This document shows, piece after piece, positions 18,001 to 27,000 of a DNA stretch of 41,736 nucleotides; within the stretch, counting starts at the first letter, position 1, and each line of letters starts with the position of its first letter. Position numbers: made by a program. Source of the DNA: Ferroacidibacillus organovorans (lineage in GTDB: Bacteria > Bacillota > Bacilli > Alicyclobacillales > SLC66); contig NZ_LSUQ01000022.1 in the NCBI RefSeq assembly GCF_001642725.1, positions 1 to 41,736 on the forward strand, written 5' to 3'.

Positions 18001-21000
18001 ACCCTTGCGCGTGAAAAGGTGGCGCTGAAGCGATGTGTCGCAGAGTACGCAAAGGAGATGTCGACGACGGATTCATCTTCACATGATAAGGAGCTGGAGG
18101 AACGCCTGCGCGGACGGGCGGTTACGCTCGGCGATGCGCTAACCGTGCTTCCGGCTGACTGGATCAAAGCGAAACTGCGCACATGGATTCACAGCGTCAT
18201 TCTTCACGGACGTGAGGATCTTGAGATTGTGTTGTGTCCTGATCTGACGATGGTTTCTGATGCAATGGATCAATCCATTGGAGGATTTTTAGAGTATGGT
18301 GTCGAATGAATAAGATTATTGTAGGTTGACGGTTTTTTGTGAGGGATCTAGGGATGGCCAATTCGGTAATTAAAAATTACTCGGACGACATTCGAACTGA
18401 GATTTATCGAGTGACGAATGAGCTACTGGAGCACCTGCACCTGTATTATCAGCCATTTCCTGAATTTGATGCTGTCCGATTTCCGGCAACGGCGCTGACG
18501 ACCGCGACGGAAGGCTTTTTTTTACCGATGATGCTACTAAAAAAGATGGTTGTTATTCCTGTGTGGATTTTTACGATTGATGACGTGATTGATCGTAAAT
18601 TGTTGTCGGATGAAGAATTGGATGCTCGACTGAAAAGTTATGAATGGATCATCACGCAGGGGCTGGATGCGTCTGACGTGTATGGTCGCGTGTTGAAGGA
18701 TCTTTATGACCAGCTAAAAGAGAGGCCGCTTTTTCACGCGTTGCGAGAAGTGTGGGAAGAAGCCTATTTTCGAATGATCCGTGGGATGCTTCTTGAAGCG
18801 CGTGAAACCGTTCGAGTCCCATCGTATGATGAATATCTCGAACACGGATCGTACAGCATTGGCGTTCCGCTCTATGTCGTTTCGACGTGGATTCTCGGTT
18901 CTTATGAAGAAACATTAACGCATCTAGAAGTCCTAAAAAAGCTGATGATGCTGTCGGCGAAAAGCATTCGGCTTGCCAACGACATGCGTACATACGAAAA
19001 AGAGAAAATGGAAAAGAACCTAAACGCGCTTGTGATCATGGAGAATACGTACGAGTCAGAAGGCTACGCGCCTGACGCGGCGAAAGCGTTGGCGTCTGCA
19101 TTTGTACGGGAAGAGTTGGAGCGCTATCGCACGCAGTTTCTTGAATTGGTTGATGAATCGGTACTGCCAATCAGAACGCTGTCAAACGTTACTCAGTTTT
19201 CGCTGTCGTTTTATGATGAGCATGATTTTCATACCGTTGATGCGGGGGAGATCCACCATGTTTGAAAACGCGGGTGAAGACGATGCTTCAAAAACGGATG
19301 TGAAGCGCAGAGCGCGTGACTTGGTCGAGCGATTGCAGGGCGGCGCGATGGGATCGATCGCTTATGACACTTCGTGGGTGGCGCGCTTAAAAAATCGGGA
19401 TGGTTCTCCGAAATTCCCGACTACGATCGCCTGGCTGCGCGCGCATCAACACGCGGACGGAAGTTTTGGCGCGCGCGATGAAACGTTGCATGACCGGCTG
19501 ATTTCTACGCTCGCGAGCGTTAATGCACTGACGACGTTGCACGATGAAACGGATAGCGAGCGCATCTCTCGCGCACTTGACTATGTGGCGCGAAACGGTG
19601 GTCGTCTGCGCGCGGATGACGCTGAAACGATTGGTTTTGAGTTGCTTTTTCCTTCGCTACTCGAAGAGGCAAAAGGCTATGGATATCGACTGCCTTTTGA
19701 ATCCTTCGGATGGGTTGAAGAACTGGGGAAAAGAAAGTTGAGCGCAGTTCCCGCGTCGTGGATCTACGAAGCGGAGTCTCCACTTATCCACAGCATCGAG
19801 TTTCTCGGAAAAACAGCACAGATTGATCGCATGGCGCAACTCGTTTCGGTCAACGGATCGATCGGAAACTCTCCATCCGCCTCGGCATTTGTCTATGGGC
19901 AAACGGACGACCCCCGACTGGAGGCGTATTTGCGTCAGATTGTAGAGACGTCTGAGGATGGCGGTGTCTGCAATGTTCAACCGTTTGAAATTTTCGAAAC
20001 GGCGTGGGTGTACTTCAATCTACAGTTGGCTGGAATCACGGTTGAGGGAATGCAAAAAGGATTGCATGAGATTGAGCTGTCATTCAGGCCGCAGGGTGTC
20101 GGGATTTCCCGCAATGGCCTAATGCCAGACGCGGATGACAGTGCACTCGCCGTCAATGTGCTAGCTCGCGCTGGACGCCGAATGTCACTCCAGTTTTTGG
20201 ATTTTTATCAAGCGGAACGCGGATTTTTATGTTTTCCGTATGAGCGCAACCCTTCGATTTCAACCAATATCCACATCCTTGACGCGCTGCGTGCGTATGA
20301 GCCGCAAGAAGTGGCGCCTCATGTGGATAAGATTCTCACGTTTTTGCGCGAGGCTCAACAGGAAAATGCGTATTGGAAAGATAAATGGCATGCCTCTCCA
20401 TTCTATACAACAGCGCATGCGATTCTGGCGCTGCGAGGATTGACTGAGTCACTGATAAAAACGGCGGTCGATTATTTAATTGAATCGCAACGGCCTGATG
20501 GTTCGTGGGGGATTTTTAGGGGTACGGCGGAAGAAACGGCGTATTGTGTACAGGCGTTGACGCTTGCGCTTCCTTATTCTGCGGATGTGGACAAGCGGCT
20601 TGCACGTGCACTTTCTTTTTTAAGTAGCGAGGGGGCAAAAAAACCTCACTCTGAACTCTGGATTGGGAAGGGGCTCTATGCGCCAACCTATGTGATTGAC
20701 GCTACGATTCTAAGCGCGCGCGCGCTCTACCAGAGATGGAGGTACTCTCATGAAAAAGGATGAAGAGTTTCAACTCCTGACGAAATCGACACAGTGGGGC
20801 GAGCTTAGCGAGATTGAAAAAGTCGTCATCATGGAAAAACGCATAGTATTTGTGCGCTGGCTCGGCATCGTTTGTGCGGCGGTGACTGTTCCCTTTTTGG
20901 GGTATCAGTGGGCTGCTTTTATGTTTGGAATCATCGGATTTGCTGCGGTCTATAATGTGATTTTTCAATTTTATATCATTGCGAAAAAGAGCGCGTGGCT

Positions 21001-24000: not shown

Positions 24001-27000
24001 TTCGCGATCGAAGAGCCTTGAAATCGGATATCAGTATCTCAAAATTGCAATGCAAGCACTTGATGACATAGCAGGGAATGAAGCGATCAAGACGCGTATT
24101 CGCATTTGGGTTAATTACGTTATCGACAAACAGCTTTCTACATTACAAGGTTACATTAAACTTGATGACGAGCTTGTAAAATAAAGATGTCGGCATGGAT
24201 CGATTTGTATCGCATAGATTTTTTATAAGTGTTGTCATTTTTAAATTGACCGTGCTAGAATAAGCATAACGATTTAGCATAACGATATACTAAATCGTTA
24301 TGCTTGATTTGAACAAAATGATGAATGGAGGGTCGTCATGAAACAAAGAATTGGAAATGTTCGGTGGGGTATTGCTTTTCTCATCGGTGTTGGAATTGTC
24401 ATTAACTATTTTGACCGAACCAATTTGTCCGTGGCTACAAAACCGCTGATGCAAGAGTATCATTTGTCCAGTGCCCAGTTTGGATGGGTACTCTCATCAT
24501 TCGCGTGGTCGTATGCTATCCTTCAAATTCCCGTAGGCGCTTTACTCGATAAGATTGGTGTCAAATGGTTGGTACGGGTAGGGACAATCATCTGGTCGCT
24601 CGCCACATTTATGACCGCGGCAGTCGGTGGAATGGGTCTAATCATTTTATCCCGCGTCTTATTGGGTGTGGCAGAGGCGCCTGCATTTCCAGGAGCGGCG
24701 AAAGCGACGGGATACTGGTTCCCACTTCGTGAGAGAGGTCTCGCGACTTCGGCGTTTGATGCGGCAGCCAAACTTTCAAATGTGATTGGGGTGCCGCTGG
24801 TGGCACTGTCTGTCACACAATGGGGATGGCGCGGCGGCTTTTACATGACAGCTATTTTGAGTCTTATGTATGCGGTTGCATACTGGATTTGGTACCGTGA
24901 CCCGTCGGAGTCCAAAACGCTAACCGATGCAGAACGTGCTTATATTGTAGAAGGCGGGGCTCAAGAGAGCGGAGAAGCACCGGGGGGCGTTGGAAAAAAT
25001 TTAGGATATCTTCTAGGACGTCGTAAGGTGTGGGGATTGACTCTCGGGTTTGCGGCATATGGATATACATTTTATTTGTTGCTTACATGGTTGCCCGGGT
25101 ACCTTGAAACGGAGATGCATATGACCGTTCTAAAATCAGGCATGTACACGATTGTCCCTTGGATCTTTGCGACCATTGCTGATATTGTTATTGGTGGGTG
25201 GTTGGTTGACTTTTTGATAAAGCGCGGAAAAAATCCCACTCGCGTGCGAAAAACGTTGCTTATTGTCGGAATGGTTTTGGGACTCGCGGTCGCTGGGGCA
25301 GGTTTTACGAAAAATCCGCAGATCGCAATCGTCTTCATCACCATTGCACTGAGTGGTCTCGCGTTTTCAGCGCCGATTGGCTGGAGCATTCCTGCGCTCA
25401 TCGCGCCAAAAGGAACGGTTGGTTTAGTGGGAAGCATCATGAACTTTTTTAACAACTTGATGGGGATTTTGGCGCCGATTATCACAGGGTATATTGCAGG
25501 CGGTACAGGCTCATTTGGACTGGGATTTTTAATCGCGGGGATCGTACTGCTGATTGGAATCCTCTGTTACCTCTTTTTACTCGGTGATTTGGAGCCGATC
25601 CAGTCACCTTACAAAGCAAACGTCTAAGAAAATGCTGAATGAAAAAATGGGAATACAAATACGCCGGGGTGTCCCGGCGTATTTGTGCGAAATAACCTGA
25701 GGTGTAAACGCGATATGGATGATAAATTTTGTGTTATCGGGTTGGATTTAGGGACAACTTCGGTCAAGACACTCACGGTGGACCAAACGGGTGTGACGCG
25801 GTTTCGAGCAGCGCGGAAAATCTCGACGAACATTGGTCCGAATGGACGCGCAGTGCAAGATCCGTTTGAGATCCGTGACGCGCTGAATTCGGTGTTCGAA
25901 TTGGCGCTTCACGCTGCGAGAAAGGATGGTCTTTTGGTGCATCGGGTTGGATTCAGCGCTGCGATGCACAGTCTGATGATTGTATCTGAAGAGGGGGAAC
26001 CGCTGACACAGGCGATGACCTGGATGGATTCGCGCGCCAAAAAACAGGCGGAATTGCTGTGGGAGTCGCTGAATGGGAAAAAAATTTATGAAGAGACGGG
26101 TACGCCCATTCACGCGATGTCTCCATTTGTAAAGTTAGTATGGCTACGAGAAACGCAACCGCAATTATTGAAAATGGGCAATCGAATCGCTTCTGTAAAA
26201 GAGTGGATCTGGCATGCGTGGTTCGACGAGTGGATGATCGATGAATCGATGGCGGGGGCGACCGGACTCTACGATGTGGAGAAACGCAGTTGGCACGAGC
26301 ATGCGCTCACTCGCATTGGTGTCAACCCGGCACAACTCTCTCGCATCGTTCCTACGTCGTATCGACAGGCTGGTTGTCGTGAGACGAGGCTGCAGTTGGC
26401 AGGGTTGACTGCGGACACTCTGTTTTCGATTGGCAGCACAGATGGAGTTCTTGCGAATTTGGCGCTTGGTGTGACCGATTCGTCAAAAATGGTATTCACG
26501 GTCGGGACAAGTATGGCTGTGCGTTCAGGGGCAAAGAGAAAAGTCACCAATCCTAGCCTTCGTCCATTCTGCTATCGATTAGATGATCAACGTTTTGTCA
26601 TCGGGGCTCCGAGCAATAGCGGAGGTGTGATCCTAGAATGGCTGATGAACATGTTATACGGCGATGATCGCGCGGAAAATGTAGATGAAACGCTGGCCGT
26701 CCTCATTCGTGACGCGGGAAACGTAGAGCTTCAAAGCCTCTACTGCTTGCCTTATGCGGCGGGAGAGCGGGCGCCGCTCTGGGATGAGGAGGCAAAGGCG
26801 TCGTTTATTGGGCTTCATCTTAAACATCAAAAGATTCACTTGGTGAGAGCGGCAATTGAGGGGATGATTTATAACGCCAAGTGGTTGATTGACAACTTGT
26901 CTGCGAGCACGGGGAACCCAGAGCAGGTGTATCTCTCGGGGAAACTGTTTGATGAACTGTGGATATGTCAATTGTGCGCGAATGTATTCGGAGTTCCTGT

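What a model noticed while it worked through the whole genome (the two positions that open the first line are those of the whole stretch)
18354..24184. Diterpene gene cluster (class II + class I synthase, GGPP synthase) with an embedded c-di-GMP enzyme, carried inside a s [...]
Four co-directional genes encode a class I terpene synthase (g01750), a class II diterpene cyclase (g01751), a GGDEF/HD-GYP protein (g01752) and a polyprenyl (GGPP-type) synthase (g01753); they lie inside the 12.8-kb recombinase element that splits spoVR. I read this as a complete pathway to a labdane/halimane-type diterpene, almost unique in Bacillota, whose class II enzyme is closest to the Mycobacterium tuberculosis halimadienyl-diphosphate synthase; in an extreme acidophile such a lipid could serve acid or metal tolerance or signalling tied to c-di-GMP. 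New would be the product and a terpene pathway that is deleted from the mother-cell genome at sporulation.
Evidence so far: Pfam: Terpene_syn_C_2/Terpene_synth_C; Prenyltrans/SQHop_cyclase_C; GGDEF+HD_5; polyprenyl_synt. Motifs intact: class I DDVID (76) and NDMRTYEKE; class II DADD (291); GGPPS DDIQD; RFGGDEF, HD, GYP. PDB sequence search: g01751 best hit 6vpt 'Cyclase' E 1e-68, then ent-CPP synthases 3e-45; g01750 best hit Streptomyces Sat1646 E 3e-14. Terpene_synth_C in 4 of 27,166 Bacillota genomes. 17 relatives of g01750 at E<=1e-3 among 5.8 billion proteins, none named.
(Added by a program. Inside this text positions count along the whole contig: contig position 1 is position 1 of the stretch shown here. 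"Call 12" and the like, gene names such as g00115 and contig names such as C1 are that model's own, and its searches are not shown. The text may have been shortened before it was handed on; [...] marks where a part breaks off. The agent that wrote the report below was given it as the finding of a first reader that could run no searches.)

Follow-up and report, generated by a model that had tools for sequence, protein, structure and literature searches.

The report
Diterpene operon with c-di-GMP enzyme
A spore-forming acid-mine bacterium carries a four-gene set for making a plant-hormone-like lipid (a diterpene), always paired with a membrane signalling enzyme, on a DNA insert that splits a sporulation gene; the same pairing turns up in several other bacterial phyla and has not been described.

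Summary
Observation confirmed. Window 18354-24184 holds four tightly packed co-directional genes: a class I terpene synthase, a class II diterpene cyclase, a 6TM-GAF-GGDEF-HD-GYP protein and a short-chain (GGPP-type) prenyl synthase. They lie in a 12,828-bp large-serine-recombinase element bounded by a 14-bp direct repeat that splits spoVR.

- **Product.** Rv3377c (halimadienyl-PP synthase) is the best overall match, but the product-deciding residues are those of copalyl-PP synthases (H178, N239-V240, DADD). A copalyl/labdane-type product is more likely than a halimane.
- **c-di-GMP gene.** It is not a passenger. Full-length homologues sit beside class II/class I synthases in 26 of the 80 best related loci (Chloroflexota, Dormiibacterota, Bacillota, Rubrobacter and others) and apparently on 7 metagenomic contigs.
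- **Element.** It is one of a family of spoVR elements with non-phage cargo. In this genome spoVR is split twice and yhbH is split too.

The operon is conserved in Ferroacidibacillus organovorans under purifying selection. Chemistry, excision and the role of c-di-GMP remain untested. This is a new variant of known kinds, of considerable interest.

The parts
7825..8004 (+). spoVR piece 1 (Pfam SpoVR profile positions 3-62)
14965..15620 (+). spoVR piece 2 (profile 53-270). It ends in the attL core of element B. The ORF as called (14995-15819) runs on into the element.
15607..15620 (.). attL core of element B: 14-bp direct repeat AACGAAGGCTGGGC
   Evidence: Joining the repeats restores ...IMNEGWATYWH..., as in the intact SpoVR of G004.
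15756..16274 (-). DinB-family gene, cargo of element B
   Evidence: DinB 1.5e-14
16319..16549 (-). 76-aa ORF with no family match, lying between attL and the recombinase. A role as recombination directionality factor is a guess that was not tested.
   Evidence: A 35%-identical counterpart lies next to the recombinase in G016.
16789..18309 (+). large serine recombinase of element B
   Evidence: Resolvase 3.9e-43, Recombinase 4.5e-28, Zn_ribbon_recom 1.5e-13; CcrB-like and XisF-like, below cut-offs; omega 0.10 against G001
18354..19265 (+). g01750, class I terpene synthase (303 aa)
19258..20763 (+). g01751, class II diterpene cyclase (501 aa). Its ATG overlaps the end of g01750 by 8 nt.
20750..23068 (+). 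g01752, 6TM-GAF-GGDEF-HD-GYP protein (772 aa). It overlaps g01751 by 14 nt.
23072..24184 (+). g01753, short-chain (GGPP-type) polyprenyl diphosphate synthase (370 aa), starting 3 nt after g01752
24338..25627 (+). MFS transporter (galactonate-transporter-like), cargo. A promoter-like site lies upstream at 24232-24261. Probably a separate sugar-acid module.
25685..27196 (+). FGGY kinase (gluconokinase-like), cargo
27150..28199 (-). LacI-family regulator, cargo
28435..28448 (.). attR core of element B, identical 14-bp repeat
28435..29073 (+). spoVR piece 3 (profile 260-405 plus SpoVR_C)

Best explanation
This is an operon for a labdane-related diterpene.

**Pathway (inferred by homology).**
- g01753 makes geranylgeranyl diphosphate.
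- g01751, a class II cyclase with a DADD acid, protonates GGPP and closes two rings. His178 with Asn239-Val240 most likely takes the proton from C17, giving a copalyl-type diphosphate of unknown stereochemistry.
- g01750, a class I synthase with Mg-binding DDxxD and NSE motifs, ionises that diphosphate and makes the final olefin or alcohol. The element holds no tailoring enzyme.

**The c-di-GMP enzyme.** g01752 is a membrane protein (six-helix bundle, coiled coil, GAF) with catalytically intact GGDEF and HD-GYP domains. It is an integral, co-evolving member of this cluster type. My inferred mechanism is that the hydrophobic product, or a precursor, is sensed in the membrane by the 6TM/GAF module and turned into a change in c-di-GMP. 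The reverse, local c-di-GMP control of the pathway, is the alternative.

**The element.** In Ferroacidibacillus the operon is cargo of a 12.8-kb element with its own large serine recombinase, inserted in spoVR. By analogy with skin, SPbeta and vrin, it is cut out in the mother cell to rebuild spoVR and stays in the spore genome.

**Shown versus inferred.** Shown here: gene content, motifs, folds, att repeats, conservation, selection, and the cross-phylum gene linkage. Inferred: every enzymatic product, sensing of the diterpene, and excision.
For: **Domains, motifs and solved relatives.**

**Class I fold.** The model has pLDDT 92.8. The nearest folds are the copalyl-PP-using synthases Sat1646 (TM 0.77/0.80), LrdC and Stt4548, plus tolypothrichol synthase (substrate not checked). 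Their substrates are given in PMC9814573 (abstract and passages).

**Base residues of the class II enzyme.**
- H178 aligns with F171 of the M. tuberculosis enzyme and with the His of LHS in Arabidopsis ent-CPS.
- N239-V240 aligns with A234-F235 and with PNV.
- In the M. tuberculosis enzyme F171H yields copalyl-PP, and F171/A234 are the dyad positions (PMC9585517, passages).
- All 16 sequences of the closest clade keep His and Asn-Val.

**Operon structure.** 8-nt and 14-nt overlaps and a 3-nt gap.

**Orthologous operon in F. organovorans (G001).** All genes are intact, dN/dS is 0.04-0.12, and dS is 0.84-1.34, like the flanking genes.

**Linkage of the c-di-GMP gene.**
- Orthologues at 38-53% identity over 96-100% of the length have the same longest-contig lengths as class I and/or class II orthologues on 7 contig lengths.
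- In the 80 best class II loci of species genomes, 26 have a homologue covering the membrane domain directly downstream. Fifteen of these align over >=600 aa. The usual order is class II, class I, GGDEF/HD-GYP, IPP isomerase, prenyl synthase.
- GGDEF, HD and HHE..GYP are invariant in 15 orthologues.

**Element.**
- att repeats that restore the reading frame.
- spoVR pieces with omega 0.02-0.04 and the recombinase with omega 0.10.
- Recombinase orthologues (47-61% identity) at the same spoVR site in four other genomes of three other genera.
- F. organovorans forms spores (PMC11123200, table passage).
Against: - No chemistry, no expression data and no RNA run were available.
- Identity to any characterised enzyme is low: about 34% for class II and about 22% for class I.
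- Tyr474, the equivalent of the halimadienyl-forming base Y479, is present. It is almost universal in the family, though: 73 of the 80 loci have Tyr, 3 have Phe and 4 are cut at the contig end.
- Most cyclases with a GGDEF neighbour have His-Thr-Val, not His-Asn-Val. The dyad argument is therefore specific to the Ferroacidibacillus clade.
- The second Asp-rich motif of g01753 reads DDVVG, not DDxxD, and no NCBIfam GGPP-synthase model reaches its cut-off.
- No excision joint was seen in the contigs of four runs.
- No sporulation promoter could be recognised.
- No directionality factor was identified.
- Contig co-location in the metagenomic clade rests on equal contig lengths. The contigs themselves could not be fetched.
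- The 6TM fold match (Z 12.4) lies within the range that helical bundles reach by chance.
Confidence: 0.7

Rival explanations
1. One reading: the class II enzyme makes halimadienyl (tuberculosinyl) diphosphate like Rv3377c, and the end product is a halimane.
For: - The best solved relative is 6vpt, at E 1e-68 against 2.9e-45 for the next.
- Tyr474 aligns with the catalytic base Y479.
- JGI names several relatives 'halimadienyl-diphosphate synthase'.
- Two Asgard homologues make this product (bioRxiv 10.1101/2025.02.07.637177, whole text read).
Against: - His178 replaces F171, and F171H switches the mycobacterial enzyme largely to copalyl-PP.
- Phe326 replaces Y328, and Y328F gives labdadienyl-PP side product.
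- Asn-Val replaces Ala-Phe, and DADD replaces DxDT.
- Tyr at 474 is not diagnostic, because nearly all 80 relatives have it.
- The source names are automatic.
Confidence: 0.15
2. The GGDEF/HD-GYP gene is an unrelated passenger that happens to lie between two terpene genes.
For: - It has no known biosynthetic role.
- The genome has 10 GGDEF genes.
- Actinomycete class II loci have class I and prenyl synthase genes but no such gene.
Against: - It overlaps g01751 by 14 nt and ends 3 nt before g01753.
- Against G001 its omega is 0.054.
- Homologues with the same membrane domain lie next to the synthases in 26 of 80 loci, whose record titles name at least five phyla.
- It lies on contigs of the same length as the synthase orthologues.
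- Of the 26 neighbouring cyclases, 25 have His at position 178 and one is cut at the contig end. Among the other loci, 20 of 54 have His.
Confidence: 0.05
3. Element B is a fixed genomic island that no longer excises, and spoVR is a dead gene. The diterpene operon would then be simply chromosomal.
For: - No excision joint was found in the contigs laid.
- The element has diverged together with the host since the two species split.
- spoVR is split twice and yhbH is split too.
- spoVR loss is only partly defective in B. subtilis (recalled, from no call).
Against: - All three spoVR pieces are under strong purifying selection: omega 0.029, 0.020 and 0.044.
- The recombinase is intact in both species, with omega 0.10.
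- The att cores are kept in G001, 14 of 14 and 13 of 14 bases.
- Joining the repeats restores the exact reading frame.
- Excision of spoVR elements is reported for Geobacillus (cited in PMC4191935, passages).
Confidence: 0.12
4. The pathway makes a terpenoid of another size, or the two synthases do not act in series. For example, g01753 makes FPP or a C25 chain, or g01750 acts directly on a linear diphosphate.
For: - g01753 reaches no NCBIfam cut-off. Its best model is an encapsulin-cargo prenyl transferase, at 230 bits against a cut-off of 450.
- Its second Asp-rich motif is DDVVG.
- Chain length cannot be read with certainty from sequence.
Against: - The best solved match is a GGPP synthase (1wy0, 8.5e-39).
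- It has an aromatic residue (Phe) five positions before DDIQD and no insertion in the motif. This is the archaeal-type GGPP-synthase pattern (rule recalled, from no call).
- All solved class II relatives above E 1e-30 act on GGPP.
- The nearest class I folds use copalyl-PP.
- The triad class I + class II + GGPP synthase is the known make-up of such clusters (PMC9814573).
Confidence: 0.08

Closest known systems
Actinomycete pimarane-type clusters (stt of Streptomyces sp. PKU-TA00600; sat/terp1 of Salinispora): class I synthase + class II copalyl-PP synthase + GGPP synthase (PMC9814573)
   Same: The enzyme triad is the same. Sat1646 is the best solved sequence match (3.1e-14) and fold match (TM 0.77/0.80) of g01750.
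   Different: - Identity is about 22%.
- There is no P450 here.
- Those clusters have no c-di-GMP enzyme. Actinomycete loci L101, L107, L113, L119 and L123 also lack one.
- The host here is a Bacillota acidophile.
- The cluster here sits on a sporulation-gene element.
Rv3377c, halimadienyl (tuberculosinyl) diphosphate synthase of Mycobacterium tuberculosis (PDB 6vpt)
   Same: It is the best solved relative of g01751 (E 1e-68). The activating His, the DKW motif and Tyr at the 479 position are shared.
   Different: - DADD here against DxDT there.
- His for F171, Asn-Val for A234-F235, Phe for Y328.
- The partner here is a canonical class I synthase. It is not the partner enzyme Rv3378c (its fold recalled, from no call), which adds adenosine (adenosyl transferase step: preprint).
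ent-Copalyl diphosphate synthases of gibberellin biosynthesis (Arabidopsis CPS, PDB 3pya; bacterial counterparts)
   Same: The His-Asn(-Val) catalytic base dyad and the DxDD acid are both present. H178 aligns with LHS and N239-V240 with PNV (dyad described in PMC9585517).
   Different: Overall similarity is lower than to Rv3377c (E 1.8e-43). There is no kaurene synthase or P450 context. Stereochemistry is unknown.
Sporulation-specific intervening elements: skin (sigK), SPbeta (spsM), vfbin (spoVFB), vrin (spoVR of Geobacillus thermoglucosidasius) (PMC4191935, PMC6957869, passages)
   Same: A mother-cell sporulation gene is split by an element that carries its own large serine recombinase and is flanked by short repeats whose recombination restores the gene.
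   Different: - The published elements are described as prophages or their remnants. This element and its relatives in the family carry metabolic or adaptive cargo and no phage gene that I found: a diterpene operon, a sugar-acid module, an ars operon, cytochrome bd oxidase.
- Two elements lie in one spoVR here, and yhbH is split as well.
- Excision was not tested.
Membrane-bound nucleotidyl cyclases with a six-helix membrane domain (P. aeruginosa diguanylate cyclase ImcA, PDB 8wcn; mammalian adenylyl cyclases)
   Same: They are the best fold matches of residues 19-198 of g01752 (Z 12.4, rmsd 3.6, 177 aligned). A GAF fold follows at 209-385 (Z 9-11).
   Different: The Z is in the range helical bundles reach by chance. 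The model's pLDDT is 75-89 for the bundle and under 60 for much of the GAF part. No ligand is known. An HD-GYP domain is added.

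Membership tests
Class II diterpene cyclase (protonation-initiated, beta-gamma fold) | DxDD acid motif whose middle Asp is the acid | tested here: met
   D291-A-D293-D294. D291 and D293 are invariant and D294 is kept in >=90% of 30 relatives.
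Class II diterpene cyclase (protonation-initiated, beta-gamma fold) | Full-length similarity to solved cyclases; activating His and (D/E)KW motif | tested here: met
   6vpt at E 1e-68 over residues 25-490. H339 and D375-K376-W377 align with H341 and D378-K379-W380.
Class II diterpene cyclase (protonation-initiated, beta-gamma fold) | Cyclises GGPP | not testable with these tools
   Needs an enzyme assay.
Halimadienyl-diphosphate synthase (Rv3377c type) | Active-site set of the characterised enzyme: DxDT, F171, A234-F235, Y328, Y479 | tested here: not met
   Only the Y479 equivalent (Y474) is kept. The others read DADD, H178, N239-V240 and F326.
Copalyl-diphosphate synthase with His-Asn base dyad (ent-CPS type) | His at the LHS position and Asn(-Val) at the PNV position | tested here: met
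   I-H178-S aligns with L-H-S, and C-N239-V240 aligns with P-N-V of Arabidopsis CPS. Both are kept in 16 of 16 closest sequences.
Copalyl-diphosphate synthase with His-Asn base dyad (ent-CPS type) | Product is (ent-)copalyl diphosphate | not testable with these tools
   Needs an assay and determination of stereochemistry.
Class I terpene synthase (alpha fold, ionisation-initiated) | Asp-rich motif and NSE/DTE motif for the Mg cluster | tested here: met
   D76, D77 and D80 are present. Only D76 and D80 are invariant in the family, giving DxxxD. N209, T213 and E217 are invariant or nearly so.
Class I terpene synthase (alpha fold, ionisation-initiated) | Alpha-helical terpene synthase fold | tested here: met
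   Model pLDDT 92.8. Foldseek gives 7e4n at E 4.7e-9 with TM 0.77/0.80.
Short-chain trans-prenyl diphosphate synthase making GGPP | First and second Asp-rich motifs | tested here: inconclusive
   The first motif, DDIQD, is intact. The second reads DDVVG, with the last Asp replaced, and is the same in G001.
Short-chain trans-prenyl diphosphate synthase making GGPP | Curated equivalog score, or C20 product | tested here: not met
   NCBIfam GGPP_syn and IdsB score 188 bits against cut-offs of 500 and 475. The best PDB match is a GGPP synthase. The product is not testable here.
Diguanylate cyclase / HD-GYP phosphodiesterase | GG(D/E)EF active site; HD and HHExxxGxGYP motifs | tested here: met
   RFGGDEF, H637-D638 and H690-H691-E...G-K-G-Y-P are invariant in 15 orthologues. 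No RxxD inhibitory site lies upstream of GGDEF (read).
Sporulation-gene intervening element (skin/SPbeta/vrin kind) | Splits a mother-cell sporulation gene, carries a large serine recombinase, and has flanking repeats that restore the ORF | tested here: met
Sporulation-gene intervening element (skin/SPbeta/vrin kind) | Excision in the mother cell during sporulation; a directionality factor | not testable with these tools
   Only assembled contigs were available, and no joint was seen. No directionality factor was recognised.

The most novel reading that the evidence does not exclude
The diterpene and the c-di-GMP enzyme form one signalling device that is conserved across at least five phyla.

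- A membrane-soluble labdane-type diterpene made by the operon would be the ligand of the 6TM/GAF sensor of its own operon partner. Alternatively, its synthesis would be gated by that partner.
[quoted passage not shown] This would be a bacterial counterpart of terpenoid hormone signalling.
- In Ferroacidibacillus the device rides on a germ-line-only element directly downstream of the excision recombinase. It may therefore be switched on in, or removed from, the sporulating mother cell.
- Histidine-kinase-cyclase fusions among relatives (P0185, P0187) point to the same theme.
Probability: 0.3. Interest if true: 0.88.

Novelty: new variant of a known kind. Interest (0 to 1): 0.72.

Why it matters
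**For terpenoid biology.** Bacterial labdane-related diterpene clusters are known mainly from actinomycetes and plant-associated proteobacteria, as antibiotic or hormone pathways. Here the synthase pair is linked, gene against gene and across phyla, to a membrane c-di-GMP synthase/hydrolase. That points to a regulatory or signalling use of diterpenes in free-living soil and mine bacteria. It also gives a concrete, cloneable test system of four genes. I found no paper describing this link.

**For function prediction.** The best database hit (halimadienyl-PP synthase, also the automatic name in JGI records) disagrees with the residues known to set the product.

**For sporulation biology.** The known sporulation-gene intervening elements are described as prophage remnants. 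This work suggests they have relatives that act as carriers of adaptive cargo: a diterpene operon, arsenic resistance, a terminal oxidase. Several can stack in one gene.

Tried and rejected
- **Class I relatives in species genomes.** The scan found no relatives.
- **Metagenome scan.** Two distant class I loci (35-36% identity) have no cyclase nearby. Not informative.
- **Fetching the contigs of the close metagenomic orthologues.** Co-location there rests on equal contig lengths only.
- **Expression.** No RNA holder is listed.
- **Laying contigs of four runs on 9101-29100.**
  - No joint across element B was seen.
  - The loose end at 15620 in X7 reads on into a spoVR that differs from this genome's, so it comes from another organism, not from an excision product.
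  - The 22932-to-28262 joint has only 29 letters on its shorter side and ends in a repeat. I disregarded it.
- **Promoter and terminator scan.** There were fewer hits than in shuffles, so it is not evidence.
- **sigmaK-type -10 pattern.** 6 matches against 7.8 expected.
- **A gapped sigmaE pattern.** Not accepted by the tool, so I dropped it.
- **Rfam.** No match in the window, so no c-di-GMP riboswitch.
- **Whether the yhbH tail lies upstream of spoVR.** Not supported.
- **Fold of the g01752 sensor.** The GAF fold is acceptable. The six-helix bundle match is within the chance range for helical bundles.

Full report
**What is there**

- g01750, 18354-19265, 303 aa: Terpene_syn_C_2 6.6e-19.
- g01751, 19258-20763, 501 aa: squalene-hopene-cyclase-type repeats.
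- g01752, 20750-23068, 772 aa: GGDEF 9.4e-45 and HD_5 1.1e-38.
- g01753, 23072-24184, 370 aa: polyprenyl_synt 1.9e-55.

The genes are packed like an operon. The ATG of g01751 overlaps the end of g01750 by 8 nt, g01752 overlaps g01751 by 14 nt, and g01753 starts 3 nt after g01752. Only 44 nt separate g01750 from the stop of a large serine recombinase gene (16789-18309). All quoted motifs are present, and the PDB figures were reproduced.

The '17 relatives' of g01750 also reproduce, but that number reflects the word index. An exhaustive search gives 315 representatives at E<=1e-3 and 11 at E<=1e-30.

**The organism**

The same-genus genome G001 holds a class II protein that NCBI lists under Ferroacidibacillus organovorans (P0164, on a contig of 202,191 bases, which is the length of G001:C6). 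That species forms spores according to a table in PMC11123200 (passage seen).

Within the order, the class I gene was found in 2 of 64 species genomes, both in this genus. A strong class II match was found in 2 of 41 genomes. The other 15 matches are weak (E >= 4.8e-7) hits on frames of about 640 aa that look like squalene-hopene cyclases.

This genome has three prenyl synthase genes, no other cyclase of this superfamily, and ten GGDEF genes.

**The enzymes**

*Class I.* g01750 modelled with an alignment of 16 relatives gives pLDDT 92.8. Its nearest solved folds are Sat1646 (TM 0.77/0.80), tolypothrichol synthase, the biformene synthase LrdC and Stt4548. Sat1646 and Stt4548 take copalyl diphosphate (PMC9814573, abstract and passages). 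In the family only D76 and D80 of the DDVID motif are invariant. The NSE triad N209/T213/E217 is invariant or nearly so.

*Class II.* g01751 is most similar overall to 6vpt, the M. tuberculosis halimadienyl-PP synthase (E 1e-68). The next matches are ent-copalyl-PP synthases. The Peters laboratory showed the following for the mycobacterial enzyme (PMC9585517, abstract and passages):
- Y479 is the base that gives the halimadienyl product.
- Y328F and Y479F give labdadienyl products.
- F171 and A234(-F235) occupy the positions of the His-Asn(-Val) base dyad of ent-copalyl-PP synthases.
- F171H yields normal copalyl-PP.

In the HMMER alignments g01751 has H178 at F171, N239-V240 at A234-F235, F326 at Y328, Y474 at Y479 and DADD where the mycobacterial enzyme has DxDT. 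Against Arabidopsis CPS, I-H178-S aligns with L-H-S and C-N-V with P-N-V. Solved enzymes with other products have Tyr or Phe at the first position.

The query and its 15 closest relatives that I aligned (42-85% identity) all keep His and Asn-Val.

Tyr at 474 is nearly universal among 80 further relatives, so it says little about the product.

I therefore favour a copalyl-type (labda-8(17),13-dienyl) diphosphate, with stereochemistry open, over a halimadienyl one. This is inference from residues, at about 34% identity.

*Prenyl synthase.* g01753 is best matched by the Pyrococcus GGPP synthase 1wy0 (8.5e-39). It has Phe five residues before an uninterrupted DDIQD. By the usual classification, which I recall and did not test, this is the archaeal-type GGPP-synthase pattern. 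Its second Asp-rich motif reads DDVVG in both species, and no NCBIfam GGPP-synthase model reaches its cut-off.

**The c-di-GMP enzyme is part of the cluster**

In G001 all four genes are intact at 84-89% protein identity, with dN/dS 0.04-0.12.

Full-length orthologues of g01752 (38-53% identity over 96-100% of the query) come from contigs whose lengths equal those of the contigs carrying class I and/or class II orthologues:
- All three genes: 9843, 17505, 60227 and 115116.
- Class I + g01752: 7237.
- Class II + g01752: 14260 and 14312.
- Class I + class II: 6154 and 37787.

The window's own three proteins likewise share one contig length, 17749. I could not fetch these contigs.

Direct evidence came from a scan of species genomes with the class II alignment. 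It found 566 relatives, of which the best 80 loci were kept. I compared the window's proteins with these 80 loci by tblastn at E<=1e-5:
- Class I: 33 of 80.
- g01752, any part: 28 of 80.
- The first 380 residues of g01752: 27 of 80.
- By the printed table, 26 loci have a hit that covers the membrane domain.
- At least 600 residues aligned: 15 of 80.
- Prenyl synthase: 19 of 80.
- The element's recombinase: 0 of 80.

Of the 43 loci with at least 4.5 kb of DNA downstream of the cyclase, 13 have the sensor homologue. The others do not.

The common order, on one strand, is class II, class I, 6TM-GAF-GGDEF-HD-GYP, one more gene, prenyl synthase. In L057 the extra gene is a type 2 IPP isomerase (410 bits against a cut-off of 281).

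The record titles of these loci name Chloroflexi/Chloroflexota, Candidatus Dormiibacterota, Limnocylindria, Candidatus Eisenbacteria, Candidatus Acidoferrum, Rubrobacter and one Bacillota MAG. That MAG (L058) shows class II, then GGDEF/HD-GYP, then prenyl synthase, as in the window.

Actinomycete loci (Lentzea, Umezawaea, Kutzneria, Actinokineospora) have class I and mostly prenyl synthase genes but no such neighbour.

Of the 26 cyclases with this neighbour, 25 have His at position 178 and one is cut at the contig end. They mostly have Thr-Val rather than Asn-Val at 239-240. Among the other 54 loci, 20 have His, 29 Phe, 4 Tyr and 1 Val.

GGDEF, HD and HHE..GYP are invariant in 15 orthologues, and the membrane part is the best conserved region. 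Among those 15, 7 match DUF4118 and 6 match GAF.

A model of residues 1-385 has pLDDT 64.5 overall, 75-89 for six membrane helices, and under 60 for much of the GAF part. The helices best match the membrane domains of the P. aeruginosa diguanylate cyclase ImcA and of adenylyl cyclases (Z 12.4). The tool's own note places this within what helical bundles reach by chance. Residues 209-385 match GAF domains (Z 9-11).

I found no paper linking a diterpene cluster with a GGDEF or HD-GYP gene (listings).

**How it may work**

The shown facts are co-transcription-like packing, cross-phylum linkage, intact catalytic motifs and a membrane sensor. None of the terpene enzymes has an added receptor domain. 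I therefore think it most likely that the hydrophobic product or a precursor acts on the 6TM/GAF sensor and changes c-di-GMP. Control in the opposite direction is possible. Both are inference.

**The element**

An intact SpoVR from G004 aligns with three pieces in the window: 7810-8007, 14953-15624 and 28429-29070. The Pfam model places them at profile positions 3-62, 53-270 and 260-405.

Element B lies between two exact copies of AACGAAGGCTGGGC, at 15607-15620 and 28435-28448. Recombination between them restores ...IMNEGWATYWH....

Its cargo, besides the operon, is a DinB-family gene, a 76-aa ORF, a galactonate-transporter-like MFS gene, a gluconokinase-like FGGY gene and a LacI regulator.

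G001 has the same element at about 80% DNA identity, like the flanks at 80-83%. Several measures point to a working system:
- dS of the cargo genes is 0.84-1.34. The flanking spoVR pieces have 0.99 and 1.41, and the response-regulator gene 0.98.
- The spoVR pieces have omega 0.02-0.04.
- The recombinase has omega 0.10.
- The att cores are kept in G001.

So the element predates the split of the two species, the broken gene is still under selection, and the excision machinery is maintained. This argues for regular reconstitution of spoVR.

Elements that split spoVR are in print: vrin of Geobacillus thermoglucosidasius, cited in PMC4191935 and PMC6957869 (passages seen).

Excision itself was not observed. 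Near-identical contigs with the element integrated at both junctions occur in a metagenome (X6), and parts of it occur in a sediment run and a mine-drainage run. No joint across the element was seen, and only assembled contigs were available.

**A family of cargo-carrying elements**

Four other genomes of three other genera of the family have spoVR split at the same profile position, each by an element with a recombinase 47-61% identical to this one. None of the five cargo genes I tested (g01752, g01753, MFS, FGGY, LacI) was found in them at E<=1e-5. Instead they carry:
- G012: an arsenic resistance operon.
- G016: cytochrome bd oxidase with rhodanese/metallo-beta-lactamase and flavoprotein genes.
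- G002: a sigma-54 activator, an ABC transporter and a proline racemase.
- G010: an MFS transporter.

No phage gene was seen in them.

**Verdict**

The pathway reading is sound at the level of homology. The product class should be shifted towards copalyl/labdane. The proposed role in acid tolerance has no support. The 'passenger' is in fact the most interesting part: a conserved pairing of a diterpene synthase pair with a membrane c-di-GMP enzyme, here carried on a germ-line-only sporulation element.

Noticed in passing
window 7998-14983: A second intervening element (A, about 7 kb) splits spoVR at profile position about 55-62. It is flanked by the imperfect repeat TGGTCGTTTGGTAA / TGGTGTTTTGGTAA and has its own serine recombinase (8019-9533, minus strand). 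Its cargo includes ornithine cyclodeaminase, an APH fragment, a GNAT and pseudouridine glycosidase/kinase-like genes. G001 has the empty site. In metagenome X6 the contigs with element A have word depth 11.6, against 264-280 for element B.
   Followed up: partly
window 1821-3798 and G000:C91:2700-3332: The sporulation gene yhbH (DUF444) is split too. Profile positions 7-259 lie on contig C91 and 256-381 at window 3376-3750, directly after another large serine recombinase gene (1821-3392). CbiX-like and formamidase-like genes (41-1525) may be its cargo. The arrangement is conserved in G001, and the yhbH piece has omega 0.06.
   Followed up: partly
window 3776-5341 (minus strand): A fourth large serine recombinase gene abuts the 3' end of the yhbH piece and is followed by an amino-acid permease gene (5430-7370). 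The borders of any element were not defined. The genome has 18 matches to the Recombinase domain of large serine recombinases.
   Followed up: no
window 16047-16620: This stretch (part of the DinB gene, the 76-aa ORF and the spacer) is 98% identical to G001, while everything around it is about 80%. Window 15828-16046 is missing in G001, which truncates its DinB gene. This suggests recent exchange between the two lineages. It is single-copy in this genome.
   Followed up: partly
window 28255-28350 and 7376-7450: An approximately 80-bp palindromic repeat has 6 copies in the genome (87-92% identity). One lies just inside attR of element B and one just upstream of spoVR piece 1. It accounts for several loose ends and a spurious joint in the laid contigs.
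   Followed up: partly
proteins P0185, P0187 (relatives of g01751): Two clusters of proteins of 812 and 844 aa fuse a histidine-kinase core (HisKA + HATPase_c) to a class II diterpene cyclase 38-39% identical to g01751. This is a second link between this cyclase family and signal transduction. A gene-calling artefact is not excluded.
   Followed up: partly
loci L041-L044 (G012, G016, G002, G010): Related spoVR elements carry an ars operon, cytochrome bd oxidase with sulfur-related genes, a transporter/proline racemase set, or a single MFS gene. In family f2, the spoVR pieces of G022 lie 135 kb apart, and G019 also has pieces.
   Followed up: partly
window 15620, run X7: Two mine-drainage contigs match spoVR up to the attL core and then continue as an uninterrupted spoVR of different sequence. 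A related organism in that sample therefore lacks an insertion at this site.
   Followed up: no
window 20750-21340 (g01752 residues 30-197): There is a weak NCBIfam match (E 5.4e-6, 25 bits, far below the cut-off) of the membrane domain to the ActS/PrrB/RegB redox-sensing histidine kinases. Their membrane part is said to bind quinone, which I recall and did not check.
   Followed up: no
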